NCBI GenBank assembly: GCA_965261345.1
Contig: OZ253449.1
Coordinates: forward strand, 2,144,001-2,208,000
DNA: 64,000 nucleotides
Direction of reading: 5' to 3'
Source: Chloroflexota bacterium
GTDB taxonomy: Bacteria > Chloroflexota > UBA11872 > VXNJ01
This document shows, in pieces, positions 30,954 to 46,154 of the stretch. Within the stretch, counting starts at the first letter, position 1. Every line of letters begins with the position of its first letter. The position numbers and the translations under genes are program-made. The notes beneath the pieces are model-generated. The model saw only the letters and a list, made by a program, of their open reading frames with translations, made no database searches and was not told the DNA's origin.

Positions 30954-31421
30954 TTGCTCGAACAGACTTTCGTGTTGCTCAAACCAGATGCTTTACAGCG
31001 ATCGCTGGGAGGCGAGATCATCGCCCGTTTCGACCGCCGCGGCTACCGGTTGGTCGCGCTCAAGATGACCCGGCCGCAGAAAGCCCAGGCCGAGTCCCAC
31101 TACGCCGAACACGAGGGCAAATTCTTCTACAGCGGGCTGGTTGACCACCTTACATCGGGGCCGGCTATAGCGATGGTCCTGGAGGGTCCGTCGGCGGTGG
31201 CCTCGGTTCGGAAAATTGTCGGTGCGACCCGGCCGCCAGAGGCGGATGCCGGAACGATTCGTGGCGATTTCGGACAGTCGCCGCTACGCAACCTGGTGCA
31301 TGCGGCTGATTCGGTTGAAAATGCCGCACGCGAAGCGGCGATCTATTTTTCTCCGGCCGAATTGCTTGAATTTGAGCGCGCCGCAGACAACTGGATATTT
31401 GAACCGGCCGATATGGCCTAA
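30954..31421 (+). CDS. ndk: Nucleoside diphosphate kinase
   Basis: TFVLLKPDA, HYAEH, GTIRGDFG and RNLVHAAD motifs; TTG 30954 follows GAGGA. Confidence 0.95.
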   Translation: MLEQTFVLLKPDALQRSLGGEIIARFDRRGYRLVALKMTRPQKAQAESHYAEHEGKFFYSGLVDHLTSGPAIAMVLEGPSAVASVRKIVGATRPPEADAGTIRGDFGQSPLRNLVHAADSVENAAREAAIYFSPAELLEFERAADNWIFEPADMA

Positions 31422-33715
31422 GTGTTTCCGCCCGACTGCCGGCGGATGACGTTCAGGGCCGATCCGGCCCAGAGCCAGGCGATCTGTTCGTCGTTTAGGG
31501 TTTGGAGCAGCTCGATCTGTTCAGAGGCGCCATCGGGGTGACGAACGCTGGCCAAGACCGGTTGGCCGGGCTTTATCTCCCCCGGGTCAACGATCGTTAT
31601 CTGGTCGCGGCGGCCGATTAGCTCGTAGTCGGCGGGATCGGCGAAGGTGAGCGCCAGGACACCCTGTTTTTTGAGGTTGGACTCGTGGATGCGGGCAAAC
31701 GAACGACAAATTACCACCGCAGCCCCGAGCAGTCGCGGTGACATCGCGGCATGCTCGCGCGACGACCCCTCACCGTAATTTTGATCGCCGATGGCCACCC
31801 AGGTATTTCCAGCGGCGGCGAGCTCGCGGGCAATTTCCGGCAGCGACTGGTCAACTTGCCCGGTAAGTTGATTGAATCCGACCCCCGGCTTTGACCCGAA
31901 GGCATTGTTGGCGCCAATGAACATGTTGTCGGAAATATTGTTCAAATGGCCGCGGAAGCGGAGCCACGGGCCGGCGGCCGAAATGTGGTCGGTGGTGCAT
32001 TGGCCCACCGCCTTGAGCAGAACCGCCATGTCGGCAAATTCGCCCGTGGTGCGACTGGCAAACGGTTCTAGCAGTTGGAGCCGATCGCTGTCGGGCGCCA
32101 CCGCAATCGCAGTCTGACTTCCGTTGGGGGCCAGATATCCGGTACCTCGGGCCAGGAACCCATTGGCCGGCACCTCCGGCGCCGGTTCGGGCGGATTGAG
32201 CCGCACCCCGGCGGATCCCGCGATCGGATCGCGGCGCGGATCAAAGCCCAGCCGTCCGCCGATTGCCATGCTCACGGCAATCTCCGGGCTGGTGATGAAA
32301 TTCATGGTTTGGGGATTGCCGTCGTTGCGACGGGGAAAATTGCGGTTAAACGAGGTAACGATCGAATTACGGGCTGGGACCGGATTGTGAGGAGCGTCGG
32401 GATCGGCCCGCCGCCACTGACCGATGCACGGCCCGCAGGCGTTGGCCAGCACGGTAGCACCGATCGCTTCCAGATCGGCGATAAGTCCGTCGCGCTCCAG
32501 GGTGGCACGTACCATCTCCGAACCCGGGGTGACCAGCAGCGGCGTGGCCACCCGGAGATCGGCCGCCTGGGCCTGGCGGGCTACCTGGGCGGCCCGTGAG
32601 ATGTCCTCGTAGGAAGAGTTGGTGCAGCTACCAATGAGCACCGCCGACAGTTCCTCCGGAAAGCCTTCGGTGGCAATTTCGCTGGCCAGATCCGAGAGTG
32701 GGCGGGCCCGGTCGGGCCGATGGGGGCCAACCACGTGCGGCTCCAGCGCCGAAAGATCGATGTCAATGACCTGGTCGTAGTAGCGATCGGGGTCTGCCGC
32801 GGTTTCGGGGTCGGCAGTTAGGAATTCCGAATTGGCCAGCGCCAGATCGGCGGCGACCGAGCGTTCGGTGGACTGCAGATATGTAATCATCCGCCGGTCG
32901 AGCGGGAAGACCGAGGTGGTAGCGCCGATTTCGGCCCCCATGTTGGTGATGGTGGCCTTACCGGTGCAGGAAATGGATTCGCAGCCTGGCCCGAAGTACT
33001 CAATGATTCGGTTGGTACCGCCGCTGGTTGTTAGCAGGCCCGCCAATTTCAGGATTACGTCTTTGGGAGCCGACCAGCCGCTGAGCGATCCGCTCAGTCG
33101 CACCCCCAGGATCGATGGCGCGAGCAGCTCCCATGGAAAGCCCACCATCACGTCTACGGCGTCGGCGCCGCCGACTCCGATTGCCAGAGTGCCAAGCCCG
33201 CCGGCATTGGGTGTGTGCGAATCGGTACCAATGATCAGCGATCCAGGGACCGCGTAGTTTTCCAGCACTACCTGGTGAATGATCCCAGAACCCGGTTCCC
33301 AGAATCCCAGCCCCCACTGGGCCGACGCCGAGCGCAGGAATGTGAAAACCTCGTCATTTTCAAGCCGGGAACGGGCCAGGTCGGGCGTGGCGCCGATCTG
33401 GGCCCGAATCAGGTGGTCGCAGTGCACGGTAGTTGGGACCTGGGTACGCGCCTGCCCGGCAAGACGGAACTGCAGCAGGGCCATCTGGCCGGTTACGTCC
33501 TGGAGCGCCACCCGATCGGGCCGCAGCATGATCCAGGCTCCCGGTTCCAGCTCGATTGTCTCCGGGTCGTCGGCGTGCGCCCAGAGGATCTTCTCGGCCA
33601 GGGTCAAGGGTCGTCCCGCCCGCCGCCGGATTGTATCGAGGCGCCCGGTCAGCCGACCGTACATTGCCGAAAGGGCCTCGGGGTCGGCACCGGTTTGATT
33701 CATCGCCGCAGACAT
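31418..33715 (-). CDS. acnA: Aconitate hydratase (mitochondrial-like type)
   Basis: HCDH, DSHT, GSCTNSSYED, NACGPCIG, TTDHIS and GEGSSREHAA motifs. Confidence 0.95.
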   Translation of the reverse strand: MSAAMNQTGADPEALSAMYGRLTGRLDTIRRRAGRPLTLAEKILWAHADDPETIELEPGAWIMLRPDRVALQDVTGQMALLQFRLAGQARTQVPTTVHCDHLIRAQIGATPDLARSRLENDEVFTFLRSASAQWGLGFWEPGSGIIHQVVLENYAVPGSLIIGTDSHTPNAGGLGTLAIGVGGADAVDVMVGFPWELLAPSILGVRLSGSLSGWSAPKDVILKLAGLLTTSGGTNRIIEYFGPGCESISCTGKATITNMGAEIGATTSVFPLDRRMITYLQSTERSVAADLALANSEFLTADPETAADPDRYYDQVIDIDLSALEPHVVGPHRPDRARPLSDLASEIATEGFPEELSAVLIGSCTNSSYEDISRAAQVARQAQAADLRVATPLLVTPGSEMVRATLERDGLIADLEAIGATVLANACGPCIGQWRRADPDAPHNPVPARNSIVTSFNRNFPRRNDGNPQTMNFITSPEIAVSMAIGGRLGFDPRRDPIAGSAGVRLNPPEPAPEVPANGFLARGTGYLAPNGSQTAIAVAPDSDRLQLLEPFASRTTGEFADMAVLLKAVGQCTTDHISAAGPWLRFRGHLNNISDNMFIGANNAFGSKPGVGFNQLTGQVDQSLPEIARELAAAGNTWVAIGDQNYGEGSSREHAAMSPRLLGAAVVICRSFARIHESNLKKQGVLALTFADPADYELIGRRDQITIVDPGEIKPGQPVLASVRHPDGASEQIELLQTLNDEQIAWLWAGSALNVIRRQSGGNT

Positions 33716-33874: not shown

Positions 33875-35026
33875 TTGAAGCTGCACGAATACCAGTCCCG
33901 CGACCTGCTCGCCGGTCAGGCCATACCGCTGCCGCCGGCTCGATTGGTCGTAGACCCGGCCGGCGCGGCCGAGGCTGCCGCTGAGCTGGGCGGCCGGGTG
34001 GTGATAAAGGCCCAGGTCCTTTCGGGCGGTCGCGGCAAGGCCGGCGGGATCAAATTGGTTGGCGATCCAGCGGCTGCGGCCCGGTCTGCCGGCAACATCC
34101 TGGGGCGCACGATCGGGGGCCACCTGGTGCAAAAGGTTCTGGTGGCCAAGGCCGTCGATATCGCGGCCGAATATTACCTGGCGGTGCTGCCGGATCGCCG
34201 GTCGCGAAAACTGGTGGTTATGGCCTCGGCGGCTGGCGGCATCGACATCGAACTGACAGCGGCCGAAAACCCGGCGGCGATTCATCGCCGCCGCTGCCCG
34301 GCCGACGGCCAATTGGAGCCGTACCAAGGCCGCGAATTGGCGTTTGATCTCGGATTGCCCAAGGCGCTGGTGGGCCAGTTCGCCCAGATTGCCGCGTCAT
34401 TGGTCAAGTGCCTGCAAATCAACGACGCCTCGCTGGTCGAGGTCAACCCGTTGGTAATTAGCGGCGACCAACTGCTGGCGATCGATGCCAAGATCAGCAT
34501 CGACGATTCGGCACTCTTCCGCCAGCCGGGCATGGGCGCGCTGCGCAATCCGGAGGAAGAATCCGAATCGGAGGCGTTGGCCCGCGAGGCTGGAATCTCC
34601 TATGTGGAGTTGGATGGATCGCTGGGATGCATGGTCAACGGGGCCGGATTGGCGATGGCCTTGCTCGACGTAATAGTGGCTGAAGGCGGCCGCCCGGCGA
34701 ATTTCCTCGACATAGGTGGCGGAGCGGATGCCGACCAGGTTGCCCGGGCCATGCGGATCATCCTTTCCGACCCTTCGGTCCGAGCGGTGCTGGTCAATAT
34801 CTTCGGCGGAATTACCCGCTGCGACGACGTGGCCCGCGGCATCACCGCGGCCCTGGCTGAGATCGACAAGCCGCCGCCGCTAATTTCCCGCCTGGCGGGC
34901 ACCAATCAGGCGGAAGGGCTAGCGATCCTGCGGCAAGCTGGCATCAGCGCCCACCGTGACATGCTCGCGGCCGTGCGGGCGGCGGTGGCCCTGGCCCAGG
35001 GGCCGGCTGAGCGATGCACAACCTGA
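33875..35026 (+). CDS. sucC: Succinyl-CoA synthetase beta subunit
   Basis: KLHEYQ, KAQVLSGGRGKAGG, NGAGLAM and NIFGGITRCD motifs. Confidence 0.96.
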   Translation: MKLHEYQSRDLLAGQAIPLPPARLVVDPAGAAEAAAELGGRVVIKAQVLSGGRGKAGGIKLVGDPAAAARSAGNILGRTIGGHLVQKVLVAKAVDIAAEYYLAVLPDRRSRKLVVMASAAGGIDIELTAAENPAAIHRRRCPADGQLEPYQGRELAFDLGLPKALVGQFAQIAASLVKCLQINDASLVEVNPLVISGDQLLAIDAKISIDDSALFRQPGMGALRNPEEESESEALAREAGISYVELDGSLGCMVNGAGLAMALLDVIVAEGGRPANFLDIGGGADADQVARAMRIILSDPSVRAVLVNIFGGITRCDDVARGITAALAEIDKPPPLISRLAGTNQAEGLAILRQAGISAHRDMLAAVRAAVALAQGPAERCTT

Positions 35027-35883
35027 TGATCGATGCCTCCACCCCGGTCCTGGTACAGGGCATCAGCGGCCGCCAGGGGTCATTCCACACCAGGTTAATG
35101 CTCGAGTACGGCACTTCGGTGGTGGCCGGGGTGGTGCCCGGTCGTGGTGGTCAACGGGTTCACGGGGTCGAGGTTTTCGACACTGTAAACCAGGCAGTTG
35201 AGGCCAGTGGAGCAAGCGCCGGGGTGGTCTTCGTGCCCCCATTTGCGGCGGCCGATGCGGTGTGCGAACAGGCCGCCTCCGGAATAAAGACGATCGTTAC
35301 GATCACCGAGGGAATTCCGGTTCTGGATGCGGCCCGGATGATCAATTTTGCCAATCGCCGCGGCGCCCGCGTTATCGGACCCAATTGCCCGGGGTTGATA
35401 CTGCCGGGCCAGACCAAATTGGGCATCATCCCTGGATCGATCGCCCGTCCCGGCCGGGTCGGAATCGTCTCGCGATCGGGAACGCTCACCTATGAGGTGA
35501 TCCAAGCGCTCACCGATCGCGGGATCGGGCAGGCGCTCTGCCTGGGAATCGGCGGTGACCCGCTGATCGGCTTTACATTCGTGGACGCGCTCGCCGAATT
35601 TGAGGGCGATCCGGGCACCGATGCGATTGTGTTGATCGGCGAAATTGGCGGTCAAGACGAAGAAATCGCCGCCGCCTACATCCGCGAAAAAGTGTCCAAG
35701 CCGGTGGTCGGGTTCATCGCCGGACGCTCTGCCCCGCCCGAACGGCAAATGGGTCACGCCGGCGCCATCGTGGCCGGGGGAATGGGTGCGGCGGTCGATA
35801 AGATCGCGGCGCTGCAGGCCGTCGATGTGCCGGTGGCCCAGCACCCCGAACAAGTGGGCGACCTGGTCGCTACCCGGCTTTGA
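35014..35883 (+). CDS. sucD: Succinyl-CoA synthetase alpha subunit
   Basis: ITEGIP, GPNCPG, SRSGTLTYE and MGHAGA motifs. Confidence 0.96.
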   Translation: MHNLMIDASTPVLVQGISGRQGSFHTRLMLEYGTSVVAGVVPGRGGQRVHGVEVFDTVNQAVEASGASAGVVFVPPFAAADAVCEQAASGIKTIVTITEGIPVLDAARMINFANRRGARVIGPNCPGLILPGQTKLGIIPGSIARPGRVGIVSRSGTLTYEVIQALTDRGIGQALCLGIGGDPLIGFTFVDALAEFEGDPGTDAIVLIGEIGGQDEEIAAAYIREKVSKPVVGFIAGRSAPPERQMGHAGAIVAGGMGAAVDKIAALQAVDVPVAQHPEQVGDLVATRL

Positions 35884-36005
35884 AGCAGGCGATGGCAAAC
35901 TGCCCCGCGCGCTCGTTATGATCATTGGGGTGGGATCGATAGCCGCCAACGGCGTTCTGGATCCCGCTTCGTTCATTCGGGCAATCCCGGTTCAAGGCCC
36001 TGTCT

Positions 36006-37571
36006 TTGATTGAATACGAACTGGTTGTGGTGGGCGGCGGGATCGCCGGTCTCAGGGCCGCCATCGCCGCTGCCGAGGCCGACCTGCGGGTGGCGGTCAT
36101 TTCGCGCACCAACCCAATTGCCCATCAAGACGCAAATCTTCGTGAAGGGTTCAACGCGCCCGACGGCGACCGGCTCAAGAACGCTTTTGCAGCCGATTGT
36201 GTGGCTGCCGGTTGCGGCCTGGCCGATCCCTCAGCGATCGCGGCGGCCGCCGACCGGGCGGTCGGCGAGGCGATTGCGGTCGAACACATGGGGGCGACAT
36301 TTGCCCGATCCGCCGATGGCGGCCTGGACGCCTTTCGCCTGGCCGGCAACTCGGCTGCCTACAGCTTGCAGGCCGGTTGGTGGTCCGGTCGAGCGGTGCA
36401 GAACGCGCTAATCGATCAGGCCGCAGCGTATGCGATTGACATATTTAGCGAATGGCTCGCTCTCGCGGTTGTAACCGACGATGCCGGAGTCTGCGGCCTG
36501 ACCGCGCTCAATATCCGCTCCGGTCAGGTCCAGGCGTTTAGCGCTGGAAACGTCCTGCTCACTGAAGGATCGGTCGGCGGCATCTTCACGACCAGCGGCA
36601 ATCCGCGCTGCGCTATCGGCAGTGGCCAGGCCTTAGCCGCTGCCGTCGGGGCGCCGTTGGTCGATATGGAATTCGTCGAATATTGCGCCGGCCTAAATTC
36701 AACTTCGCCATCAATGAACGGGGCGCTGATAGGCGATGCCGCCACTGTCGCCGCGGCGGCATACACCGGATTGCGCTCCCAACCTGATCCAGCTACTCCG
36801 GGAGGCCTGGCCCGCGCGCTTGATCCGGGCGGATCGACCCGAATCGACTTTTCCGGCAACCGCGAGGAGATTGAGCTGTTCGCCGGCGAAATCGGTCTTT
36901 TGCTCGGATCCGAGCTGTCCACCGAGGTCATTCCATCGGTTGCCTACTGCGTCGGCGGGATTGCTCCCGATACCGCCATCGACGGGCTGTGGGCTGCCGG
37001 CGAGGCGGCCGTCTCGCCGTTGCTGGGAGCGGGTCTGCTCGCGGGCAATACCCTGCTCGACCTCGTTCAGTCTGCCACTGCGGCGGTGATGCAAATTACC
37101 CGGCGGTCAGGCGGGGTGCCCGCGTCGCTGCGCCTAAAAACCCAGGAAGAGATTCAACTCACCTTCAGCGGCGATCGCCAGATCGACACCGCCGTCCTCT
37201 GGGATCGCCTGCGCGCGGTAATGACCCAGTCGGCCGGCCTGGCCCGCGAACGTGATGGCCTTGAGCGTGCCCGCGGCCAGATAGATGAGATTGCCGCACT
37301 TGCGGCGCGGTCCGCACCGGCATTTCCGGGCGCACATTTCAACCTCGAGTTGGTGCGCCTATTGGAGTTGCGCCAAGGGCTGGTTACCGCGGCCGCCATC
37401 GTAGCCGGATCGAGCGCCCGGTTGGAGTCGCGTGGCCCACATCAGCGAGTCGATTTCCCGGGACAATCTGTTGATTTTGATGACCATACTGTTCTGCGCC
37501 GCGGCGATGCTGGTTTCAATGTGCAACGCGAGCTGCGGGTAGGCCGATCGCCGGCCGGAGTTGCCCGATGA
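36006..37571 (+). CDS. SdhA/FrdA-like flavoprotein lacking catalytic residues (putative pseudoenzyme)
   Basis: GGGIAG, DMEF, AAGE and RLESRGxHxRxDFP motifs retained; catalytic His/Glu/Arg positions substituted. Confidence 0.8.
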   Translation: MIEYELVVVGGGIAGLRAAIAAAEADLRVAVISRTNPIAHQDANLREGFNAPDGDRLKNAFAADCVAAGCGLADPSAIAAAADRAVGEAIAVEHMGATFARSADGGLDAFRLAGNSAAYSLQAGWWSGRAVQNALIDQAAAYAIDIFSEWLALAVVTDDAGVCGLTALNIRSGQVQAFSAGNVLLTEGSVGGIFTTSGNPRCAIGSGQALAAAVGAPLVDMEFVEYCAGLNSTSPSMNGALIGDAATVAAAAYTGLRSQPDPATPGGLARALDPGGSTRIDFSGNREEIELFAGEIGLLLGSELSTEVIPSVAYCVGGIAPDTAIDGLWAAGEAAVSPLLGAGLLAGNTLLDLVQSATAAVMQITRRSGGVPASLRLKTQEEIQLTFSGDRQIDTAVLWDRLRAVMTQSAGLARERDGLERARGQIDEIAALAARSAPAFPGAHFNLELVRLLELRQGLVTAAAIVAGSSARLESRGPHQRVDFPGQSVDFDDHTVLRRGDAGFNVQRELRVGRSPAGVAR

Positions 37572-38281
37572 TCGCGCAGCTGCACGTGAATGTTGCGCGC
37601 TACGATCCCGAAGTTGACCGGACGGTGCGCTGGCAAACGTTCCAGGTGCGGCACGAAGCGGGAATGATGGTTCAGGATGCGTTGATCCAGATTCGCGACG
37701 AGCAGGATGGGTCACTGCGTTTTCGCGAAGCCGAAGCGGGCGGATTCTCGGGCCTCGGCGCGGTCGCCTTGAACGGGCGTCCGGTGCTGGCAGTTCGCGA
37801 GGAACTTCCGTCAGATAACCGCGAAATCAGAATCGGCCCGCTCCCTAATCATGGAGTGATCGTCGACCTGGTGGTCGACCTAGAAGTCGGCGACCACCGC
37901 GCGGTGAGCCTTCGTCCCTGGTTGCAGCGGGTCAGCGGCGTTTCCGATGGGCACCCGTCGGCGATGACGCGTGAACAGCTGGACCGACTGCAGCGCAGCC
38001 AATTCTGCAACCGGTGCGGAATCTGTGATGGCGCCCTTCGTTCGACTGGTCCAGATTTTGTGGGTGCTGCGTTCCTGCTAAAGACCTATCGGCTGACGGC
38101 CGACGTGCGAGACGACTTCGACCGCGAGCGAATGATATTGGCGGTCGGCAAAAACGGGCTCTGGCGTGTGGATTCCTCACAATTGGCCGGAGACTGTTGC
38201 CCCTACGGCCTTGAACCATTTGCGCAGATTGATAAGCTCCGCCGCGCTGCCGCGTTAAACGGGTTCACCGACCCGGGCTAG
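37568..38281 (+). CDS. SdhB/FrdB-like protein retaining only the [4Fe-4S] ligands
   Basis: RYDP...DALxQIRDEQDGSLxFR, PLPN..VIVDLVVD, CxxCxxC and terminal CP; ATGA coupling with the upstream gene. Confidence 0.8.
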   Translation: MIAQLHVNVARYDPEVDRTVRWQTFQVRHEAGMMVQDALIQIRDEQDGSLRFREAEAGGFSGLGAVALNGRPVLAVREELPSDNREIRIGPLPNHGVIVDLVVDLEVGDHRAVSLRPWLQRVSGVSDGHPSAMTREQLDRLQRSQFCNRCGICDGALRSTGPDFVGAAFLLKTYRLTADVRDDFDRERMILAVGKNGLWRVDSSQLAGDCCPYGLEPFAQIDKLRRAAALNGFTDPG

Positions 38282-38344
38282 TCAATTTGGGCAATCCGGG
38301 TTCGTTGGTCTCTCATCCGACCCCCGCGCAAGATTGGAACCCCC

Positions 38345-39271
38345 ATGCGACCGAAAGTTACCGTTGTAGGCGCCGGTGCCACCGGCGGCTCCACCGCCCG
38401 GCGGGTTGCCGAGCGCGGCTACGCCGACGTGGTGCTAGTTGACATTGTGGCCGGGCTGCCACAGGGCAAAACCCTGGATCTCAACCATGCCGGGTCGCTG
38501 GGCGGGTATCCGCCCAACATCGTCGGCACCAATTCCTACGATCCCTCCGCCGGGTCCGACGTCTGCGTTATCACCTCGGGATTCCCACGCAAACCGGGCA
38601 TGAGCCGCGACGACCTGCTCCTTGCCAATAAAGCGATCGTCGAGCAGGTTACCACCGAGCTGGTGAGCCGATCCCCGGAAACGATCCTGGTCATCCTTTC
38701 CAACCCGATGGATGCCATGGCACAGCTGGCAATGCAGGTATCGGGACTTCCGCGCGAGCGCGTAATTGGGCAGGGTGGAATCTTAGATTCATCGCGCTAC
38801 CGGACCTTCCTGGCATGGGAACTGGGGGTGTCCCCGGCCGACATTACCGGGTTTGTCCTGGGAGGGCACGGCGACACGATGGTCCCGGTACCAAGCTATA
38901 CGACTGTGGCCGGTATGTCGGTTAAAGAGTTGATCGCGCCCGACCGGCTTGCGGCAATAGTTGATCGGACTCGCAACGGCGGCGGCGAGATCGTGGGCCT
39001 GATGAAAACGGGCGGGGCGTTCGAGGCTCCGGGCGAGGCCTGCGCGATGATGGTCGATGCGATCTTGCTCGATCAGAAGCGCCTCTACCCCTGTGCGGTA
39101 ATGCTCGACGGCCAGTACGGGATCGACGGTACGTTCGTCGGGGTTCTGGTCAAACTTGGCGCCGCCGGCGTCGAGCAGATCATGGACTTTCCGTTGAGCC
39201 AATCGGAGTTGGCCGAGCTGCAGCGATCGGCGGCATCGGTCGGCGAATTAGTGGAAATAATGGGAATTTAG
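38345..39271 (+). CDS. mdh: Malate dehydrogenase (LDH-like)
   Basis: VGAG, PRKPGMSRDDL, NPMD, LDSSR and GGHGD motifs. Confidence 0.96.
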   Translation: MRPKVTVVGAGATGGSTARRVAERGYADVVLVDIVAGLPQGKTLDLNHAGSLGGYPPNIVGTNSYDPSAGSDVCVITSGFPRKPGMSRDDLLLANKAIVEQVTTELVSRSPETILVILSNPMDAMAQLAMQVSGLPRERVIGQGGILDSSRYRTFLAWELGVSPADITGFVLGGHGDTMVPVPSYTTVAGMSVKELIAPDRLAAIVDRTRNGGGEIVGLMKTGGAFEAPGEACAMMVDAILLDQKRLYPCAVMLDGQYGIDGTFVGVLVKLGAAGVEQIMDFPLSQSELAELQRSAASVGELVEIMGI

Positions 39272-39713: not shown

Positions 39714-41666
39714 TCAATGTGGAGTGTCGGTTTTAAAGCTCGCTGAATGGCGTCTATCCCACGCCAGCGCGCCCAGCCATCCCGCCAGCGCAACTGCCGC
39801 CAACGAACCGGCAACCCACCGGACACTGCCCACGAGATCTCCCGCCAAATCCTGAACCGCTCGCAGGACATAGTCCGCGGTCAACTGGCTCGTACCGGCG
39901 AACGGTCCGTCGGCGAGGTCGATCATTCCTTCCCGGGCCGCGGAAAATCCGGCCGCGGAGGCGGCTTCAAAGACCGGCCAGAGAAGAATTGTGAGCGTCA
40001 ACGCCGCAATGAACAAAACCGCTGATGCCCACGCAATCCTGCCGGGCCAGCTAACGCCACCTAATAACCCGATTACAACCAACATGCCCAGCGCCACCAG
40101 ATACGAAATCCACCCGTACTGGCGCACGGCCCTGGACGCATCGCCCAATGCCTGCAGCCCTGTCCCTATCGAATCCTTAGAAGCTTCGTCCTCCAAACTT
40201 CCAATCGAAAAGACATAACCGTCGGCAAAAAACGTACGGATGTCGTCAAAATCGGCCAGGTTTCCGCCCGCCGCGAGATCTTCCCGAAGATCTGTTTGGT
40301 CATATGAATACCCTTCGGCCAACAGCCGGCGCCATTCGTCCAAGGCTTTGAGCGCCCCTGGGCCGCCAGCGCTATTTACCACGTCCCGCAGGTGAGATTC
40401 CGAAAACACGACCGAGTCCGGAAGTGGGTCAAGGACCAGGGTCTGAACCAGGCTGGCGGTCCGGGCCGTAACCGAGTCCAGGAGCTGGCTTCTCAGGATT
40501 CCGGGAGGAAGGCAGGCGGGAAGGTCGGGATTTTCCAGCGTTAAGGTCAATTCGCCAAGATCGGGCCCGGATTCACAGTCGGGGAGGGAATTTACAACCG
40601 CTGTGACCTTTTGGTCGGCCAGTCCGGTCAGGCCCAACTGCGCCGCCTGTTTGTTGGGTTCAATCGAAATTTGGGTTGTGAAGCCATCCGACCGTCCCAG
40701 GAGATAGTCGCTGGCGTCCTCGATGAAAATTTCGGCTTGTCGATCGACCAGATCCGGCGGCGCGAACTCGAGCAGCGCGTCGGTGATTTCAGCGCTGGTT
40801 ATTACCTGTCCAAACGGAACCTCCACTCCGACACCCAGGATTGGCTCGATCGCTGGCGCAATAACGTATTGGCTCAGCAGGTCGATGGCGGCGTCGCCGC
40901 CCAGGATCGCCTTGAACTCGGCTGCGGTGGCATCCGTCAGCTCTTCGGTAATGCGGATCTGCACCTCGAAGCCGTCGGAATCGGCGATTAGATACGACGA
41001 AACCTGCCGCACGGAATGCTCGGTCAATCCCGCAATCCATTCAGGGGTGATCACCCGAACCGCGGACTCGGCCAACCGCTCGCTCGCGACCGCATTTCCC
41101 CCGAAGGAAAGGGTCGCAATGTTCGACGCCTCCGTGGAGCTGGCAAACGATTCAATCAATCGGTCGCGAACCAACGGGCGAATTTCGTTTCGGAGAAGCC
41201 ATTCATAAGTGCCCGCCTCACGCAGGAGCTCCAACGACCCGTCGACCATGCCCCGCACCGGCTCAGTGGCGTTGATCCGAATCGCCACCTGATCCTGTTC
41301 CCCGGCAATGATTTGACCGATCGCCAGCGCAATCGGCGCAACGATCGCCTCCAACTTTTGCGGCGAGAGGCCAAGATGCACGGCCTCCAAGATCTGTCGG
41401 TTCGTTAACCCGGATTCGGCAAGAACATTCCGTCGAACATCCACGCCAAGTTCGGCTGGATCGGCAGCACGCACGTCGTTGAGGACCGACGCCAACAAAT
41501 CAACCACCAGAAATTGATAAACACCGCGTTTTTCGAGCTGCTGCGGATAGAAGCTTGGCTTTAGAAATGTGTCGTTTAGTCCGAACACGAAAAGCGCAAC
41601 CATCAGGGTGGGAAGAAGGATCGTCCCCCCAAGGGCAGCTATGGAGCGACGGAATAGCAGCATCAC
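39714..41666 (-). CDS. Hypothetical membrane protein with a large repeat-containing soluble region
   Basis: 650-aa ORF; one N-terminal and about three C-terminal TM helices; internal repeat. Confidence 0.75.
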   Translation of the reverse strand: MMLLFRRSIAALGGTILLPTLMVALFVFGLNDTFLKPSFYPQQLEKRGVYQFLVVDLLASVLNDVRAADPAELGVDVRRNVLAESGLTNRQILEAVHLGLSPQKLEAIVAPIALAIGQIIAGEQDQVAIRINATEPVRGMVDGSLELLREAGTYEWLLRNEIRPLVRDRLIESFASSTEASNIATLSFGGNAVASERLAESAVRVITPEWIAGLTEHSVRQVSSYLIADSDGFEVQIRITEELTDATAAEFKAILGGDAAIDLLSQYVIAPAIEPILGVGVEVPFGQVITSAEITDALLEFAPPDLVDRQAEIFIEDASDYLLGRSDGFTTQISIEPNKQAAQLGLTGLADQKVTAVVNSLPDCESGPDLGELTLTLENPDLPACLPPGILRSQLLDSVTARTASLVQTLVLDPLPDSVVFSESHLRDVVNSAGGPGALKALDEWRRLLAEGYSYDQTDLREDLAAGGNLADFDDIRTFFADGYVFSIGSLEDEASKDSIGTGLQALGDASRAVRQYGWISYLVALGMLVVIGLLGGVSWPGRIAWASAVLFIAALTLTILLWPVFEAASAAGFSAAREGMIDLADGPFAGTSQLTADYVLRAVQDLAGDLVGSVRWVAGSLAAVALAGWLGALAWDRRHSASFKTDTPH

Positions 41667-42613: not shown

Positions 42614-43375
42614 CTAACGCCTGCCGCGAAATACCCGGCCAAGCAATCGCTGTAACGGATCATAGGCCTCATCGGCGACTCGTTCTTTGAGCGGGATTAT
42701 CGCGTTGTCGGTGATCTTAATCCCTTCCGGGCAGATGTCGGTGCAGCATTTGGTTATGTTGCAAAACCCCAACCCGTGGACTCGCTGCAACTCGTCGCGC
42801 CGATCGAGCGTGTCAAGTGGATGCATCTCGAGGGCGGCCGCATAGACCAACAGACGCGGCCCCACGAATTCTTCGTGCAAAGCGCTCGAACGAAGTACGT
42901 GGCATACGTCCTGACAGAGAAAGCACTCAATGCATTTCCTAAATTCCTGGACCCGGTCAATATCGCCCTGCTCCATGCGCCAACCGCCGGCGGCCTGTTC
43001 CTCGGTGGTCTGCGAGCGCGGTTCAAATTTGCGAATCGACTGTTTGGCGCGGTAATTCCAACTGACATCGGCGACCAGGTCGGTAAGGACCGGAAAGGCC
43101 TTCAGTGGAGTAACGTAGATTGGCGCTTCGATGTCCAGTTCGTGGAAACCGGTCATGCAGGCCAGCCGCGGGCGGCCGTTGATCTCCATCGAACAGGATC
43201 CGCATTTGCCGGCCTTGCAGTTCCAGCGACAGGCCAGCGAGGGGTCGGCGTTGGCCTGTATCCAATGCAGGGCGTCGAGGACCACCGTCCCCTCTTCGAG
43301 CGGCACCTGGAAATCCTCGAATCGGGTTTGACCGGCATCGCCGCGCTGGACCCGGAGGGTTGCTTGCTCAGACAT
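42614..43375 (-). CDS. sdhB: Succinate dehydrogenase iron-sulfur subunit (Sdh1-type)
   Basis: CKAGKCGSC...C, CIECFLCQDVC and CNITKCCTDICP motifs. Confidence 0.93.
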   Translation of the reverse strand: MSEQATLRVQRGDAGQTRFEDFQVPLEEGTVVLDALHWIQANADPSLACRWNCKAGKCGSCSMEINGRPRLACMTGFHELDIEAPIYVTPLKAFPVLTDLVADVSWNYRAKQSIRKFEPRSQTTEEQAAGGWRMEQGDIDRVQEFRKCIECFLCQDVCHVLRSSALHEEFVGPRLLVYAAALEMHPLDTLDRRDELQRVHGLGFCNITKCCTDICPEGIKITDNAIIPLKERVADEAYDPLQRLLGRVFRGRR

Positions 43376-43379
43376 GGTG

Positions 43380-45182
43380 CTAGGGCCCGTCGATGATGGC
43401 TTGGAGGTCGGCTGGCGGCTTGGGCAACGGTTCGGTGACCACGATCATTTCACCGCGCGAGTCCTGTTTGACGATTACCGACTTCTCGCTCCATTCGGGC
43501 AGGCTCGCGGGATAGTCGTCGCGGGTGTGGCCTCCACGACTTTCTTTGCGTTCCCGGCCGGCCAGCGCGCTGGCCCGGGCCAGGATCAGGACGTTATGAA
43601 AGTCGAGGGCTTGGTGCCAACCCACGTTGAAGGAGGAACCGCTGGGGATCGGCGCCCGGCTGGCCCAGCTGGCATATTGATCCAGTTCGCCGAGGGCCTC
43701 TTCGAGGTCGCTCGCGCGGCGGATTATTCCGACCTTGTTATCCATCATCGCCTGCAGGCTGCCCAGCAAAGCGAATGGGTTCTCCTTGCCGCGGGCTGAA
43801 AAAGGAGCCAACGCGTCGGCCTGGGCGGCGTCGATAGTCGATTGCGCCGGTTTTACCGGGTGCGGATTGGCCAGTGCCGCCCGGGCGGCGTATTCGCCGG
43901 CGCGCTTGCCAAATACCAGCAGATCGGTGAGCGAATTCCCGCCGAGGCGATTGGCGCCATGCATTCCTCCGGCAGCCTCCCCCGCGGCGAAGAGCCCCGG
44001 TATGCTGGCGGCCTGGGATTCGGACTCAACCCGGATCCCGCCCATGATGTAGTGGGCGGTGGGCCCCACCTCCATGGCGGTCTTGGTGATGTCGACCCTG
44101 GCCAGTTCGGAGAACTGGTGGTACATGGATGGAAGACGTGAGCGGATGTCCTGGGCCGATCGTTGCGAGGCAATATCGAGAAACACCCCACCGTGCGGTG
44201 ACCCCTCGCCGGCATCGACCTGGCGCAGGATTGCCCGCGCGACCTCGTCGCGGGTTAGCAGCTCGGGTGGACGACGGGCCTGTTTGTCGCCGGCCAGCCA
44301 ACGCCGGGTCTCGGCTTCGCCGTCGGCATATTCGCCCTGGAACATCTCGGGCACGTTGTCGAACATGAATCGCTGTCCGGATCGATTTCGCAACACCCCG
44401 CCCTCGCCGCGGACCGCTTCGGTGACCAGAATGCCGCGAACCGATGGTGGCCAGACCATGCCGGTCGGGTGGAACTGGATGAATTCCATGTCGATTAGTT
44501 CGGCCCCGGCCTTCCAGGCCAGGGCGTGACCGTCGCCGGTCCCTTCCCAGGAATTGGTGTTGATCGCCCACGCCCGGCAGGCCCCGCCGGTGGCAATTAC
44601 CACTGATTTGGCGGCGATTGCCAGCATTTTGCCGTCGGATCGCTGGTAGGCGAATACCCCGACAACTCCCGACTCCTCAACCAGCAGACTGGTCACCGCG
44701 CATTCCATGTGAACGGAAATTCCCTGGTGGATGCCGTGGTCTTGGAGGGTCCGGATCATCTCCAGGCCGGTGCGATCGCCAACGTGGGCCAGGCGCGGAT
44801 AGCGATGACCGCCGAAATTGCGCTGCAGGATCAGGCCGTCGGGGGTTCGGTCGAACACCGCTCCCCAGGCCTCCAATTCGCGGACCCGCGCGGGGGCCTC
44901 CTGCGCGTGGATCTGGGCCATCCGCCATTGCCCCAGGAGCTTGCCGCCGCGCATCGTATCGCGGAAATGGACTTCCCAGGAATCGCGCGGGTCGGTGTTG
45001 CGCAGAGCCGCGGCCATTCCGCCCTCAGCCATGACCGTGTGGGCCTTGCCAAGCAGCGATTTGCAGATTACCCCGACGCTGGCCCCCTCGGCGCGGGCGG
45101 CGATCGCCGCCCGCAGGCCGGCCCCGCCGGCCCCGACGATCAGGACGTCGTAGGCGAGTTGTTCGGGCGTCGGCGCATTCAT
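43380..45182 (-). CDS. sdhA: Succinate dehydrogenase flavoprotein subunit (Sdh1-type)
   Basis: KAHTVMAEGG, QFHPTG, TEAVRGEGG, TRDEVAR, PTAHYIMGG and HGANRLGGNSL all intact. Confidence 0.93.
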   Translation of the reverse strand: MNAPTPEQLAYDVLIVGAGGAGLRAAIAARAEGASVGVICKSLLGKAHTVMAEGGMAAALRNTDPRDSWEVHFRDTMRGGKLLGQWRMAQIHAQEAPARVRELEAWGAVFDRTPDGLILQRNFGGHRYPRLAHVGDRTGLEMIRTLQDHGIHQGISVHMECAVTSLLVEESGVVGVFAYQRSDGKMLAIAAKSVVIATGGACRAWAINTNSWEGTGDGHALAWKAGAELIDMEFIQFHPTGMVWPPSVRGILVTEAVRGEGGVLRNRSGQRFMFDNVPEMFQGEYADGEAETRRWLAGDKQARRPPELLTRDEVARAILRQVDAGEGSPHGGVFLDIASQRSAQDIRSRLPSMYHQFSELARVDITKTAMEVGPTAHYIMGGIRVESESQAASIPGLFAAGEAAGGMHGANRLGGNSLTDLLVFGKRAGEYAARAALANPHPVKPAQSTIDAAQADALAPFSARGKENPFALLGSLQAMMDNKVGIIRRASDLEEALGELDQYASWASRAPIPSGSSFNVGWHQALDFHNVLILARASALAGRERKESRGGHTRDDYPASLPEWSEKSVIVKQDSRGEMIVVTEPLPKPPADLQAIIDGP

Positions 45183-45961
45183 GCCGCGATCAAGATCAAG
45201 CGCGGGTCGATGACGGTCTCGGTGGCCACCAGGCGGACGTAGACATCGACCAGAGCGACCCAGATGAGCGAGAACCAGGCCCAGTTGCCGTGGCGCAGGT
45301 TAAAGAATGTCGCGATTTTCCAGAGTCGACCGCGGGTTCGATTCACCAGTGAACAGGAGAAGCAATCGACCCGCCCACCGACCAGGTGGCGGAGCGAGTG
45401 GCATCCCAGTACGTAGCCGCCCAGCGAGACCGCATTAACGACCATGAGCACCGTGCCCAGTCCCACTCCGAAGCCCTCGCTAAAGAAGAAGGCCAGTATT
45501 GCGTCGTAGACGAAGATCACCACCAGGGCCAGCGCGAATGGCAGGGCATAGCGGTGCAGGTTCTGCCAAATCAGCAGTCGGCGCTCGCCCGAATAAGGAA
45601 GGTTGAGGCGGCCGACCGCGCAAGCCGGCGGCGAAAGGAAGTAGGAGCGGTAGTAGGACCGGCGGTAGTAGTAGCAGGTGATGCGAAAGGACAGCGGGGC
45701 CCAGAGGATTAGCAGGGCCGGCGTGCGCAGCCATCCAGGCCACCAATCGGGCCAGACAAACCCGGAAAAATGAGGTGAATAAAAGGGTGATAAATAGGGC
45801 TCGGCGACGTGATGTTCGTTTTGGGCACCCTGCAATATGACCCAACCCGAATAGAGGATGAACGCGCCAAAAATAAGACCGAAACGCAACGGTTCGACCC
45901 ACCATCGGTCAACCCGCAGGGTCTGCCCAAGGCGCGCGTTGGCGGCCGGTATGCTAGCCAT
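45179..45961 (-). CDS. Succinate dehydrogenase membrane anchor (Rv0249c/Sdh1-like)
   Basis: YLSPFYSP, FRITCYYYR, QNLHRY, GCHSLRH and HxxWAWxSL motifs; first gene of the sdh operon. Confidence 0.88.
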   Translation of the reverse strand: MASIPAANARLGQTLRVDRWWVEPLRFGLIFGAFILYSGWVILQGAQNEHHVAEPYLSPFYSPHFSGFVWPDWWPGWLRTPALLILWAPLSFRITCYYYRRSYYRSYFLSPPACAVGRLNLPYSGERRLLIWQNLHRYALPFALALVVIFVYDAILAFFFSEGFGVGLGTVLMVVNAVSLGGYVLGCHSLRHLVGGRVDCFSCSLVNRTRGRLWKIATFFNLRHGNWAWFSLIWVALVDVYVRLVATETVIDPRLILIAA

Positions 45962-46081
45962 GGCGGAAATGCCCCACCTATCGCCTGGGAACGAATGCAC
46001 GAAATCTCCACTTAGGATAGTTTGTGCGGGCTTCCAGATTGGCCGCCGCCGCCCGGCACGGATAAGAAAATTGGGCTACCG

Positions 46082-46154
46082 GCCCCCGTAGCTCAGGGGA
46101 CAGAGCAGCTGCCTTCTAAGCAGCGGGCCGCGTGTTCGAATCACGCCGGGGGCA
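46082..46154 (+). tRNA. tRNA-Arg(TCT)
   Basis: GCCCCCG/CGGGGGC acceptor, GCTGC-CTTCTAA-GCAGC anticodon arm, TGTTCGAATC T-arm. Confidence 0.94.

What the first reader, a model, noticed from the sequence alone, without database searches (positions are those of the whole stretch)
36006..38281. Intact but catalytically dead SdhAB-like pair embedded in the sucCD-mdh operon
Seen: two full-length, stop-free ORFs with ATGA coupling lie between sucD and mdh, with no membrane anchor gene. Compared with the intact SdhA at 43380-45182, every dicarboxylate-site motif is altered: QFHPT->EYCAG, TEAVRG->GDAATV, TRDEVAR->TPGGLAR, PTAHY->PSVAY, HGANRL->LGAGLL. The FAD-binding ATGG becomes TEGS and the covalent-FAD His region is disrupted, while the GxGxxG loop and C-terminal ESRGxHxR remain. 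Established: these His/Glu/Arg residues are required for succinate/fumarate turnover. Inference: a retained pseudoenzyme (scaffold, redox/Fe-S sensor, assembly factor or new activity) co-expressed with TCA genes, while a different Sdh does the catalysis.
Basis: partly seen in the sequence, partly recalled or inferred. Interest (0 to 1): 0.85.

Follow-up and report, generated by a model that had tools for sequence, protein, structure and literature searches.

The report
Conserved dead succinate dehydrogenase gene pair
A small group of Chloroflexota keeps, inside its citric-acid-cycle gene cluster, a second copy of the two soluble succinate dehydrogenase subunits that has lost its substrate site and two of its three iron-sulfur clusters, yet is still preserved by selection, so it probably does a non-catalytic job.

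Summary
Window 36006-37571 (A', 521 aa) and 37568-38281 (B', 237 aa) are intact SdhA-like and SdhB-like genes with a 4-nt overlap, lying between sucCD and mdh with no anchor gene.

- **A' losses.** It lacks the dicarboxylate-site His, Arg and Arg. In the window copy it also lacks the covalent-FAD His. It keeps GxGxxG, GEAA and ESRGxHxR.
- **B' losses (new here).** It has lost all four [2Fe-2S] ligands and all three [3Fe-4S] ligands. It keeps exactly the four [4Fe-4S] cysteines in 17 of 17 family rows.
- **Not decay.** Five Chloroflexota species genomes show acn | sucC-sucD-A'-B'-mdh | sdhBAC. A deeper sixth keeps the core with a different Sdh type. dN/dS is 0.14-0.17 for A' and 0.09-0.16 for B', like the neighbouring genes.
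- **Rarity.** The family has 15 A' and 11 B' clusters at 90% identity among 5.8 billion. Nine literature searches found no description.
- **Catalysis elsewhere.** An intact class-F Sdh (homologue of PDB 7D6V) sits 4 kb away.

Most likely this is a soluble A'B' pseudoenzyme that keeps its cofactors and has a regulatory or scaffolding role. A new enzymatic activity is not excluded, and the function is untested.

The parts
36006..37571 (+). A': SdhA/FrdA-like flavoprotein, 521 aa, TTG start. The FAD-binding fold is kept, the dicarboxylate site is stripped and the capping domain is shortened.
   Evidence: AF2 model pLDDT 82.1, pTM 0.88. Best Foldseek match is E. coli FrdA 5vpn_A, TMq 0.85. The TTG start is conserved in the window and L001-L005.
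36033..36050 (+). A' GGGIAG dinucleotide-binding loop (residues 10-15), retained
   Evidence: G10 and G12 are invariant across A' and canonical sequences.
36117..36149 (+). A' loop IAHQDANLREG (residues 38-48). The covalent-FAD His column holds Q41 here. R46 is specific to the family and invariant.
   Evidence: Residues 38-41 and 43-44 lie in the predicted A'-B' interface.
36678..36692 (+). A' EYCAG (residues 225-229) in place of QFHPT; the substrate His is lost
   Evidence: 0 of 15 family rows have His in this column.
36732..36749 (+). A' GDAATV (residues 243-248) in place of TEAVRG
   Evidence: Thr -> Gly in 15 of 15 rows, Glu -> Asp in 14 of 15.
36933..36947 (+). A' PSVAY (residues 310-314) in place of PTAHY. 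The His is lost only in the window protein and its 92% relative.
   Evidence: His is kept in 13 of 15 family rows.
37023..37040 (+). A' LGAGLL (residues 340-345) in place of HGANRL; the substrate- and flavinylation-Arg is lost
   Evidence: Leu in 15 of 15 rows. The role of this Arg is taken from passages of PMC9557727.
37425..37448 (+). A' ESRGPHQR (residues 474-481), retained C-terminal motif
37568..38281 (+). B': SdhB/FrdB-like protein, 237 aa, with a 4-nt ATGA overlap onto A'
   Evidence: AF2 model pLDDT 77.7. Foldseek top matches are FrdB/SdhB chains, TMq about 0.8.
37715..37795 (+). B' former [2Fe-2S] loop (residues 50-76), with all four Cys ligands replaced. It is the most conserved stretch of B'.
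   Evidence: 18 of 27 columns are invariant among 10 close family members. Residues 54-63 lie in the predicted interface with A'.
38006..38026 (+). B' C147-x2-C150-x2-C153, the three retained ligands of the [4Fe-4S] centre. The fourth Cys of the motif (a [3Fe-4S] ligand) is Leu.
38195..38203 (+). B' C210-C211-P212. C211 is the fourth [4Fe-4S] ligand. The two preceding [3Fe-4S] ligand columns are not Cys.
33875..35026 (+). sucC (succinate--CoA ligase beta), first gene of the co-directional cluster
   Evidence: NF001913, 436.8 bits against cut-off 370.
35014..35883 (+). sucD (succinate--CoA ligase alpha)
   Evidence: NF004230, 387.2 bits against cut-off 336.
38345..39271 (+). mdh (malate dehydrogenase), 63 nt downstream of B'
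   Evidence: TIGR01763, 408.2 bits against cut-off 351.85.
31418..33715 (-). Aconitate hydratase, divergent neighbour, conserved in the synteny block
42614..46000 (-). Intact class-F-type succinate dehydrogenase: sdhB 42614-43375, sdhA 43380-45182, membrane anchor 45179-46000
   Evidence: NF005866 897.5 bits against 819; NF009052 371.5 against 256; 7d6v_C at 1.6e-46 and 7d6v_A at 2.7e-213. All 13 Cys of SdhB and all catalytic residues of SdhA are present.

Best explanation
A'B' is a derivative of the soluble head of respiratory complex II. It has no membrane anchor, it is kept by selection, and it can no longer interconvert succinate and fumarate.

**Shown**
- A' keeps the FAD-binding scaffold but lacks the substrate His, the proton-shuttle Arg and the flavin-proximal Arg. 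Its capping domain is about 55 residues shorter.
- B' keeps only the four cysteines that ligate the [4Fe-4S] centre in canonical SdhB.
- Both genes are under purifying selection.
- Both are fixed between sucCD and mdh in a small Chloroflexota clade.
- Every full locus also carries an intact Sdh next door.

**Inferred**
- The two proteins form a soluble heterodimer through a remodelled version of the canonical interface. The former [2Fe-2S] loop now serves as a protein-protein contact.
- FAD is bound non-covalently, and the single [4Fe-4S] is kept as a structural or sensing cofactor.
- Electrons cannot pass from flavin to cluster because the [2Fe-2S] relay is gone. They cannot pass to quinone because the [3Fe-4S], the quinone-site residues and the anchor are gone.
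- The dimer therefore acts non-catalytically, as a regulatory or scaffolding partner of the TCA enzymes it is probably co-transcribed with (SucCD, Mdh) or of the adjacent Sdh.

My confidence that the pair is dead for succinate/fumarate and maintained by selection is about 0.9. The figure given below is for the whole statement, including the non-catalytic role.
For: **Residue losses in A' (15 family rows).** His242-equivalent 0 of 15; Thr254 -> Gly 15 of 15; Glu255 -> Asp 14 of 15; the Arg286 column is a gap in 15 of 15; Arg399 -> Leu 15 of 15. The His242 column varies (C, V, L, I, A). The two remaining His vary within the family: covalent His 13 of 15 and His354 13 of 15, and the window lineage has lost both. 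Vestigial, unconstrained positions would behave this way. Passages of PMC9557727 give Arg286 as the proton shuttle and Arg399 as required for the flavinylation intermediate.

**Cofactor scaffold kept.** G10, G12, G48, G188, E333, N348 and the ESRGxHxR residues are invariant across A' and canonical sequences.

**B' cysteines.** The four [4Fe-4S] ligand columns are Cys in 17 of 17 family rows. At the other seven ligand columns there is no Cys, apart from single exceptions in 4 rows (one [2Fe-2S] column in P0134 and L006_B; one [3Fe-4S] column in P0132 and L005_B). Nine of the 17 rows have only 4 Cys in the whole protein.

**Selection.** For the three least saturated pairs (L002, L003, L004; dS 0.33-0.62), dN/dS is 0.14-0.17 for A' and 0.09-0.16 for B'. 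The comparison values are sucC 0.16-0.26, sucD 0.10-0.13, mdh 0.06-0.08 and sdhB 0.08-0.11.

**Synteny and coupling.** The gene order sucC-sucD-A'-B'-mdh holds in 6 of 6 full loci. The 4-nt A'/B' overlap is kept in the window plus 6 loci. No terminator-like site lies in either intergenic gap.

**Folds.** A' matches complex II flavoproteins with TMq 0.80-0.87. B' matches iron-sulfur subunits with TMq about 0.8.

**Predicted A'-B' binding.**
- Score: median 0.94; best of 3 controls 0.00.
- Calibration: the mark was reached by 58 of 80 solved complexes and 2 of 110 mismatched pairs.
- Consistency: runs agree in at least 94% of contacts; partner pLDDT is at least 86.
- Caveat: this is a textbook pair, so the pass may reflect likeness to solved complex II structures.

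**Interface signal.** 21 of 92 family-specific conserved A' positions lie in the predicted interface, against 50 of 429 other positions (odds ratio 2.24, Fisher p = 0.007). The former [2Fe-2S] loop is the most conserved part of B'.

**Catalysis elsewhere.** An intact class-F Sdh is present.
Against: - No expression, cofactor or activity data exist; all members come from uncultured genomes.
- Keeping the FAD scaffold and a complete [4Fe-4S] ligand set fits equally well with a redox function.
- The family has 92 conserved positions of its own. One is an invariant Arg (R46) at the position aligned to FrdA Glu49 (this name is recalled; PDB 2b76 is titled 'FrdA E49Q'). Others are the polar residues D42 and N44 in the same loop. 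A remodelled active site could look like this.
- Mean conservation at the predicted interface is only slightly higher than elsewhere (0.83 against 0.80).
- FAD and cluster placement were not scored by the complex prediction.
- No partner other than B' was tested.
- Co-transcription is inferred only from spacing and the absence of consensus terminators.
Confidence: 0.5

Rival explanations
1. Neofunctionalised flavoenzyme. A' uses FAD on a substrate that is not a dicarboxylate, passing electrons to O2 or a soluble acceptor. B' serves as a structural subunit whose [4Fe-4S] only stabilises the fold.
For: - The FAD-binding core is retained.
- There are 92 family-specific conserved positions, including invariant R46, D42 and N44 near the former flavin-His loop and W125/W126.
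- dN/dS is as low as for real enzymes.
- By my count from the table, 31 of 59 nearest SdhA-like cluster representatives also differ in at least one of five catalytic columns. Diversified active sites are therefore common in this superfamily. Stand-alone homologues with other reactions exist, such as L-aspartate oxidase and soluble fumarate reductases (passages of PMC10238741).
Against: - The former active-site positions are filled by Gly, Ala, Leu and Val. The His242 column varies among C, V, L, I and A, which is unlike a catalytic residue.
- The two remaining His are dispensable in some members.
- The capping domain, which closes over substrate, is shortened and is the least conserved internal region (0.75).
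- Several of the conserved polar residues (H40, N44, W126, R129, N133) fall in the predicted A'-B' interface rather than in a pocket.
- No hint of a substrate comes from the gene neighbourhood beyond TCA enzymes.
Confidence: 0.3
2. Alternative or decoy head for the membrane anchor. A'B' docks on the class-F SdhC encoded 4 kb away, or joins the Sdh oligomer. This would modulate how many active heads are assembled, or aid assembly.
For: - An intact sdhBAC sits next to the cluster in the window and in L001-L005.
- The B' C-terminal domain is well conserved (0.86) and keeps the SdhB fold.
- The conserved TTG start of A' could keep its amount low. This is inference.
Against: - B' has lost the [3Fe-4S] ligands and the following CP(S/V)(Y/F)WW-type segment that faces the anchor and quinone site in canonical enzymes (the role of that segment is recalled, not tested).
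- L006 keeps the pair next to a different Sdh type: its SdhA is 34% and its SdhB 32% identical to the window's. That argues against co-adaptation to one anchor.
Confidence: 0.12
3. Ordinary gene decay. The pair is a pseudogenised duplicate on its way to loss.
For: - Catalytic residues and most Fe-S ligands are lost.
- A' and B' evolve about twice as fast at non-synonymous sites as the resident SdhA and SdhB. For window against L001, dN is 0.35 against 0.16 for the A subunits and 0.24 against 0.15 for the B subunits.
Against: - There are no stops or frameshifts in the window or in 6 of 6 full loci, although dS exceeds 1 between lineages.
- Lengths are fixed: 13 of 15 A' clusters have 519-521 aa and 9 of 9 close B' clusters have 237 aa.
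- dN/dS is 0.09-0.20.
- 80 of 237 B' columns are invariant across 11 members, including one at 46% identity.
- L017 is the only locus with a split A'. Its acn, sucC and sucD are also split, which looks like an assembly-quality problem.
Confidence: 0.02

Closest known systems
Complex II soluble head: SdhA/SdhB and FrdA/FrdB (E. coli QFR 1KF6/5VPN; M. smegmatis Sdh1 7D6V)
   Same: - Same two-gene order and translational coupling.
- Same folds: A' TMq 0.80-0.87 and B' about 0.8.
- Same predicted A-B interface region.
- FAD-binding core, ESRGxHxR motif and [4Fe-4S] ligands are retained.
   Different: - No anchor gene.
- Dicarboxylate-site His, Arg and Arg are absent.
- The capping domain is about 55 residues shorter.
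- [2Fe-2S] and [3Fe-4S] ligands are absent.
- A' scores far below all curated cut-offs.
- It sits on a long branch (stem 1.33 changes per site), away from the resident SdhA in a 51-row tree (quick method).
The L006 / P0165 / P0134 / P0314 lineage (marine Chloroflexota MAG records), the deeper sister of the family
   Same: - Same position between sucD and mdh.
- B is 237 aa with the same four retained Cys.
- A shares Gly-Asp at the Thr254/Glu255 columns and Leu at Arg399, and lacks the covalent His.
- It groups with the A' family in the tree at 95% SH-aLRT.
   Different: - A is longer (547-559 aa) with a fuller capping domain, and still has the His242-equivalent.
- B keeps one extra Cys in the former [2Fe-2S] loop.
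- Identity to the window is only 32-38% for A and 46-49% for B.
Stand-alone SdhA homologues: L-aspartate oxidase NadB and soluble fumarate reductases
   Same: - Anchor-less members of the same flavoprotein superfamily with non-covalent FAD (passages of PMC10238741).
- Similar length: NadB models align over most of A'.
   Different: - Those enzymes keep the catalytic His and Arg set and have no SdhB partner.
- A' scores 161.7 bits against cut-off 452.75 for TIGR00551 and is paired with B'.
Pseudoenzyme subunits of metabolic complexes: HisZ with HisG, inactive dihydroorotase with Pseudomonas ATCase, Core1/Core2 of cytochrome bc1 (all recalled, not tested here)
   Same: The concept matches. An enzyme paralogue loses its catalytic residues and is kept under selection beside, or within, an active metabolic machine.
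   Different: - No partner or non-catalytic function has been shown for A'B'.
- Here a two-subunit, cofactor-bearing redox module is affected as a unit. My nine searches found no description of this for complex II.

Membership tests
SdhA/FrdA flavoprotein subunit of complex II | FAD_binding_2 plus Succ_DH_flav_C domain architecture and fold | tested here: met
   Pfam PF00890 (3.5e-30, residues 6-225 only) and PF02910 (1.4e-14). Foldseek top matches are FrdA and SdhA chains.
SdhA/FrdA flavoprotein subunit of complex II | Score above a curated NCBIfam family cut-off | tested here: not met
   Best is TIGR01812, 205.7 bits against 567.3. All 25 listed models are below their cut-offs.
SdhA/FrdA flavoprotein subunit of complex II | Dicarboxylate-site residues (E. 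coli SdhA His242, Thr254, Glu255, Arg286, His354, Arg399) | tested here: not met
   Window protein: Cys, Gly, Asp, gap, Ala, Leu. Family: His242 0 of 15, Arg286 0 of 15, Arg399 0 of 15. Residue roles are from passages of PMC9557727 and from recall.
SdhA/FrdA flavoprotein subunit of complex II | Histidine for the 8-alpha covalent FAD link | tested here: not met
   Gln41 in the window protein. His in 13 of 15 family rows.
SdhA/FrdA flavoprotein subunit of complex II | Membrane anchor subunit encoded with it | tested here: not met
   Only A' and B' lie between sucD and mdh, in the window and in 6 of 6 full loci.
SdhB/FrdB iron-sulfur subunit | Fer2_3 N-terminal domain and a curated subfamily score | tested here: met
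   PF13085, 63.5 bits. TIGR00384, 137.4 bits against cut-off 88. All equivalog-level models are below their cut-offs.
SdhB/FrdB iron-sulfur subunit | Eleven Cys (or Asp) ligands for [2Fe-2S], [4Fe-4S] and [3Fe-4S] | tested here: not met
   Only the four [4Fe-4S] ligand columns are Cys. No Fer4 Pfam domain is detected, unlike the resident SdhB.
L-aspartate oxidase (NadB) | Curated score, catalytic His and Arg set, stand-alone gene | tested here: not met
   TIGR00551, 161.7 bits against 452.75. Catalytic columns are lost. The gene is translationally coupled to B'.
Pseudoenzyme (operational definition) | Homologue of an enzyme that lacks residues essential for the ancestral reaction | tested here: met
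Pseudoenzyme (operational definition) | Maintained by purifying selection across species | tested here: met
Pseudoenzyme (operational definition) | No catalytic activity of any kind, plus a demonstrated non-catalytic role | not testable with these tools
   This needs purified protein and partner identification.

The most novel reading that the evidence does not exclude
A'B' is the first 'dead complex II head'. It would be a soluble module that keeps FAD and a single, now solvent-exposed [4Fe-4S] cluster, and uses the integrity of that cluster to sense oxygen, oxidants or iron. It would bind and tune the TCA enzymes encoded around it (SucCD, Mdh or the class-F Sdh). A respiratory enzyme would thus have been converted into a metabolic regulator or metabolon organiser.
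Probability: 0.2. Interest if true: 0.8.

Novelty: new variant of a known kind. Interest (0 to 1): 0.62.

Why it matters
Complex II is among the best-studied respiratory enzymes. Its soluble homologues are all described as active oxidoreductases. The 2023 review PMC10238741 contains neither 'pseudoenzyme' nor 'noncatalytic'.

Here both head subunits have been stripped together of substrate site, electron relay and quinone link, yet are conserved for longer than synonymous sites take to saturate. That would be a natural experiment on three questions:
- what the SdhA-SdhB scaffold can do besides catalysis;
- whether the [4Fe-4S] centre is structurally indispensable;
- how TCA enzymes are organised in Chloroflexota.

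In practice, B' passes the TIGR00384 cut-off. Such genomes may therefore be credited with two succinate dehydrogenases in metabolic reconstructions. About half of the nearest SdhA-like cluster representatives also have non-canonical catalytic columns. That points to a wider, unexplored diversification of this superfamily.

Tried and rejected
- **Gene decay.** Rejected on dN/dS and synteny.
- **Recent duplication of the resident SdhA.** Rejected. A' is 25-27% identical to P0003 and far from it in the tree.
- **Regulatory RNA or terminator around the pair.** Rfam at gathering thresholds found only 5 tRNAs in the window. No terminator-like site lies in the intergenic gaps. Folds of the two gaps are no better than shuffles, z = -0.70 and +0.15.
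- **The 15-nt motif flanking the pair.** It has no exact copy in any of the 19 loci. Upstream of A' it is only partly conserved, and upstream of mdh it is not recognisable.
- **ESM Atlas search with B'.** It returned only generic SdhB/FrdB clusters.
- **The listing of cluster members.** This would have shown how public records name the relatives.
- **[4Fe-4S]-dependent fumarase idea.** Dropped. All four cluster ligands are Cys, so no iron is left open, and A' has no carboxylate-binding residues (reasoning).
- **Literature.** Nine searches found no description of such a pair. One further search failed on term syntax.
- **Not checked.**
The complete relatives' chromosomes could therefore not be searched for fumarase, SdhE or other partners.
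  - Paper supplements were not consulted.
Full report
**1. What is there**

The window is ordinary chromosomal DNA with about 62% G+C and no compositional break at the locus. Around the finding, the + strand carries five genes in a row:

| Gene | Coordinates | Note |
|---|---|---|
| sucC | 33875-35026 | |
| sucD | 35014-35883 | |
| A' | 36006-37571 | 521 aa, TTG start |
| B' | 37568-38281 | 237 aa |
| mdh | 38345-39271 | |

- An aconitase gene lies divergently upstream (31418-33715).
- A' and B' overlap by ATGA.
- The gaps to sucD and mdh are 122 and 63 nt, with no terminator-like site in either.
- Four kilobases downstream, on the other strand, lie sdhB, sdhA and a 273-aa anchor (42614-46000).
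- SdhA and SdhB exceed the NCBIfam equivalog cut-offs. SdhA and the anchor match PDB 7D6V chains A and C at 2.7e-213 and 1.6e-46.
- The review PMC10238741 (passages) describes 7D6V as the class-F complex II of Mycobacterium smegmatis.

**2. The flavoprotein A'**

Pfam finds FAD_binding_2 only over residues 6-225, plus the C-terminal Succ_DH_flav_C domain. Every NCBIfam SdhA, FrdA and NadB model scores far below its cut-off; the best is 205.7 bits against 567.3.

Residue names below use E. coli SdhA numbering. The roles of Arg286, Arg399 and His45 come from passages of PMC9557727; the others are recalled. Over 15 family rows:

| Position | State in the A' family |
|---|---|
| His242 | Absent in 15 of 15; the column varies among C, V, L, I, A |
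| Thr254 | Gly in 15 of 15 |
| Glu255 | Asp in 14 of 15 |
| Arg286 | Gap in 15 of 15 |
| Arg399 | Leu in 15 of 15 |
| Covalent-FAD His | His in 13 of 15; Gln in the window protein, Pro in P0018 |
| His354 | His in 13 of 15; Ala in the window protein and its 92% relative |

- The window protein is therefore the most eroded member of its family.
- The two surviving His residues behave as unconstrained relics.
- Because the flavinylation Arg is gone, I infer that any FAD is bound non-covalently.
- Retained across A' and canonical proteins are the GxGxxG loop, G48, G188, the GEAA motif, N348 and ESRGxHxR.
- The stretch between the former QFHPT and PTAHY motifs is 83 residues, against about 137 in the resident SdhA. 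The capping domain is thus truncated. It is also the least conserved internal region.
- The AF2 model is confident (pLDDT 82.1, pTM 0.88). It matches complex II flavoproteins with TMq 0.80-0.87.

**3.

I aligned the 17 family rows with canonical SdhB sequences.

- All four [2Fe-2S] ligand columns have lost Cys, and so have all three [3Fe-4S] ligand columns. The only exceptions are single columns in four rows.
- C147, C150, C153 and C211 are Cys in 17 of 17 rows. In the standard CxxCxxCxxxCP...CxxxxxCxxxCP arrangement, these four ligate the [4Fe-4S] centre. That assignment is established knowledge and was not tested here.
- Nine of the 17 rows have no other cysteine at all.
- Pfam sees only Fer2_3 and no Fer4 domain, unlike the resident SdhB.
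- B' still passes the subfamily model TIGR00384 (137.4 bits against cut-off 88).
- The former [2Fe-2S] loop (residues 50-76) is the most conserved part of the protein, with 18 of 27 columns invariant.
- The model (pLDDT 77.7) matches FrdB and SdhB chains at TMq about 0.8.

**4. It is a conserved family, not decay**

Word-indexed searches of 5.8 billion clusters gave these results:
- **A'.** 15 clusters at 51-92% identity, 13 of them with 519-521 aa. The next hit falls to 32%.
- **B'.** 9 clusters at 66-95% identity, all 237 aa, plus one at 46%.
- **B' profile search.** It added one more deep member. Bit scores then fall from 350 to 168.
- **Exhaustive scan at 50% clustering.** The whole A' family collapses to one representative at 1024 bits. 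The next is P0165 at 224 bits.

A scan of 185,579 species genomes returned 19 loci. Seven carry the family. All are titled Chloroflexota or Chloroflexi MAGs.
- **L001-L005 and the window.** The order is acn | sucC-sucD-A'-B'-mdh | sdhB-sdhA-sdhC.
- **L006.** A deeper lineage that keeps sucCD-A-B-mdh beside a different Sdh type.
- **L017.** A partial locus in which acn, sucC, sucD and A' are all fragmented, which I attribute to assembly quality.
- **Coupling.** The 4-nt A'/B' overlap is kept in all six full loci. The TTG start of A' is kept in L001-L005.

| Gene | dN/dS, least saturated pairs (L002, L003, L004; dS 0.33-0.62) |
|---|---|
| A' | 0.14-0.17 |
| B' | 0.09-0.16 |
| sucC | 0.16-0.26 |
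| sucD | 0.10-0.13 |
| mdh | 0.06-0.08 |
| sdhB | 0.08-0.11 |

- Against the window, dS exceeds 1. Those ratios (A' 0.19-0.27, B' 0.14-0.17) are less reliable.
- A' and B' accumulate non-synonymous change about twice as fast as the resident SdhA and SdhB.
- Their dS is also higher than that of the neighbouring genes in most pairs. I read this as possibly weaker codon selection, which is inference only.

**5. Origin**

In a 51-row tree (IQ-TREE quick mode, SH-aLRT support only):
- The A' family is a 100% clade on a very long stem of 1.33 changes per site.
- It is sister, at 95%, to L006_A plus P0165.
- It is remote from the resident SdhA.

Long branches make this placement fragile. The shared position between sucD and mdh supports it independently. 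L006_A and P0165 already have Gly-Asp at the Thr254/Glu255 columns, Leu at Arg399 and no covalent His. They still have the His242-equivalent and a fuller capping domain. The loss was therefore stepwise and old.

By my count from the table, 31 of the 59 other nearest cluster representatives differ from the canonical residue in at least one of five catalytic columns. Two caveats apply. Alignment errors are possible, and a degenerate query may preferentially recover degenerate relatives.

**6. How it probably works**

*Shown:* the residue losses, the retained cofactor-binding elements, selection and synteny.

*Inferred:*
- A' and B' still form the canonical heterodimer.
- The complex prediction used FAD and a 4Fe-4S cluster riding along unscored.
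  - Score: median 0.94 against a best control of 0.00.
  - Calibration: the mark was reached by 58 of 80 solved complexes and 2 of 110 mismatched pairs.
  - Consistency: runs agree in at least 94% of contacts, and partner pLDDT is at least 86.
  - Caveat: SdhA-SdhB is a textbook pair, so the pass may only reflect likeness to solved structures.
- The predicted interface includes the former [2Fe-2S] loop of B' (residues 54-63). On A' it includes the former flavin-His loop (38-44), a family-specific insertion (232-241) and W126, R129 and N133.
- Family-specific conserved A' positions are enriched in that interface: 21 of 92 against 50 of 429 (odds ratio 2.24, p = 0.007).
- Without the [2Fe-2S] relay, the flavin and the [4Fe-4S] would be too far apart for physiological electron transfer. 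This rests on canonical complex II geometry, which is recalled.
- Without the [3Fe-4S], the quinone-site segment and an anchor, there is no route to quinone.

I therefore favour a soluble, non-catalytic heterodimer that keeps its cofactors and serves the TCA module it is embedded in. The [4Fe-4S] would be structural or a sensor. Which partner it acts on is unknown.

**7. Rivals**

- **New flavin-dependent activity (about 0.3).** This is the serious alternative. The family has its own invariant polar residues (R46, D42, N44) and is as constrained as real enzymes.
- **Decoy or alternative head for the class-F anchor (about 0.12).** This is possible but disfavoured. The anchor-facing elements are lost, and L006 keeps the pair beside a different Sdh type.
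- **Plain decay (about 0.02).** Effectively excluded.

**8. Known or new**

Nine full-text searches found no description of a catalytically dead SdhAB pair. In the 2023 review of non-canonical complex II forms I saw passages only; a term search found no occurrence of 'pseudoenzyme' or 'noncatalytic'. One relative (P0009) is named only 'FAD-binding protein' by its source. I could not retrieve names for the others.

I class the pair as a new variant of a known kind. It clearly derives from complex II, fails the defining functional features of SdhA and SdhB, and has an untested role.

**9. Limits**

- Everything is computational, and all members are uncultured.
- FAD and cluster binding, dimerisation, expression and function are all untested.
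- Gene neighbourhoods of metagenome-only relatives could not be examined.
- The rest of the relatives' genomes could not be examined either.

Noticed in passing
window 35979-35993 and 38289-38303: The 15-nt motif GGGCAATCC[C/G]GGTTC occurs exactly twice in the window, in the two intergenic gaps flanking A'B'. It ends 12 nt before the A' start and 41 nt before the mdh start. It has no exact copy in the 19 fetched loci. Upstream of A' it is only partly conserved in relatives, and the gaps have no significant RNA fold. Its meaning is unknown.
   Followed up: partly
window 39714-42655: About 3.3 kb lies between mdh and sdhB. It holds a 650-aa ORF (39714-41666, -) with no Pfam or NCBIfam hit, a 92-aa ORF (41663-41941, -) and an ORF at 42164-42655 (+). 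In L002-L005, mdh is followed directly by sdhB. This looks like a lineage-specific insertion into the TCA island.
   Followed up: no
proteins P0165-P0225 (one search hits): By my count from the table, 31 of the 59 nearest SdhA-like cluster representatives differ from the canonical residue in at least one of five catalytic columns. This suggests many uncharacterised, diversified or dead SdhA paralogues in metagenomes.
   Followed up: partly
L008 8339-10954 (also L009, L010, L012-L014) and L015/L016: Dehalococcoidia MAGs carry an sdhA-sdhB pair in which SdhA has QFAPT or QYAPT (substrate His -> Ala). In L008 it also has Thr-Ala in place of Thr-Glu and no proton-shuttle Arg. The 318-333-aa SdhB partner keeps nearly all Fe-S cysteines. 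This is another non-canonical complex II head.
   Followed up: partly
proteins P0020-P0025, P0171, P0173: A group of SdhA-like proteins of about 540 aa keeps all substrate residues. It has Asn at the covalent-FAD His column and Leu at the Arg of TEAxRGEGG. These are probably active enzymes with non-covalent flavin. Their gene context could not be fetched.
   Followed up: no
L017 and L004: In L017, acn, sucC, sucD and A' are all split into pieces. In L004, acn and sdhA are split while A' and B' are intact. This pattern looks like assembly or sequencing errors rather than biology.
   Followed up: no
window 42614-46000: The resident succinate dehydrogenase is of the mycobacterial Sdh1 (class F, PDB 7D6V) type, with a single 273-aa anchor that has no Pfam hit. 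A tRNA gene follows at 46082-46154.
   Followed up: partly
window 36006; L001-L005 about 8439-8442: A' starts with TTG in the window and in all five close relatives. sucC in the window is also listed with a TTG start. Whether this limits A' translation is unknown.
   Followed up: no
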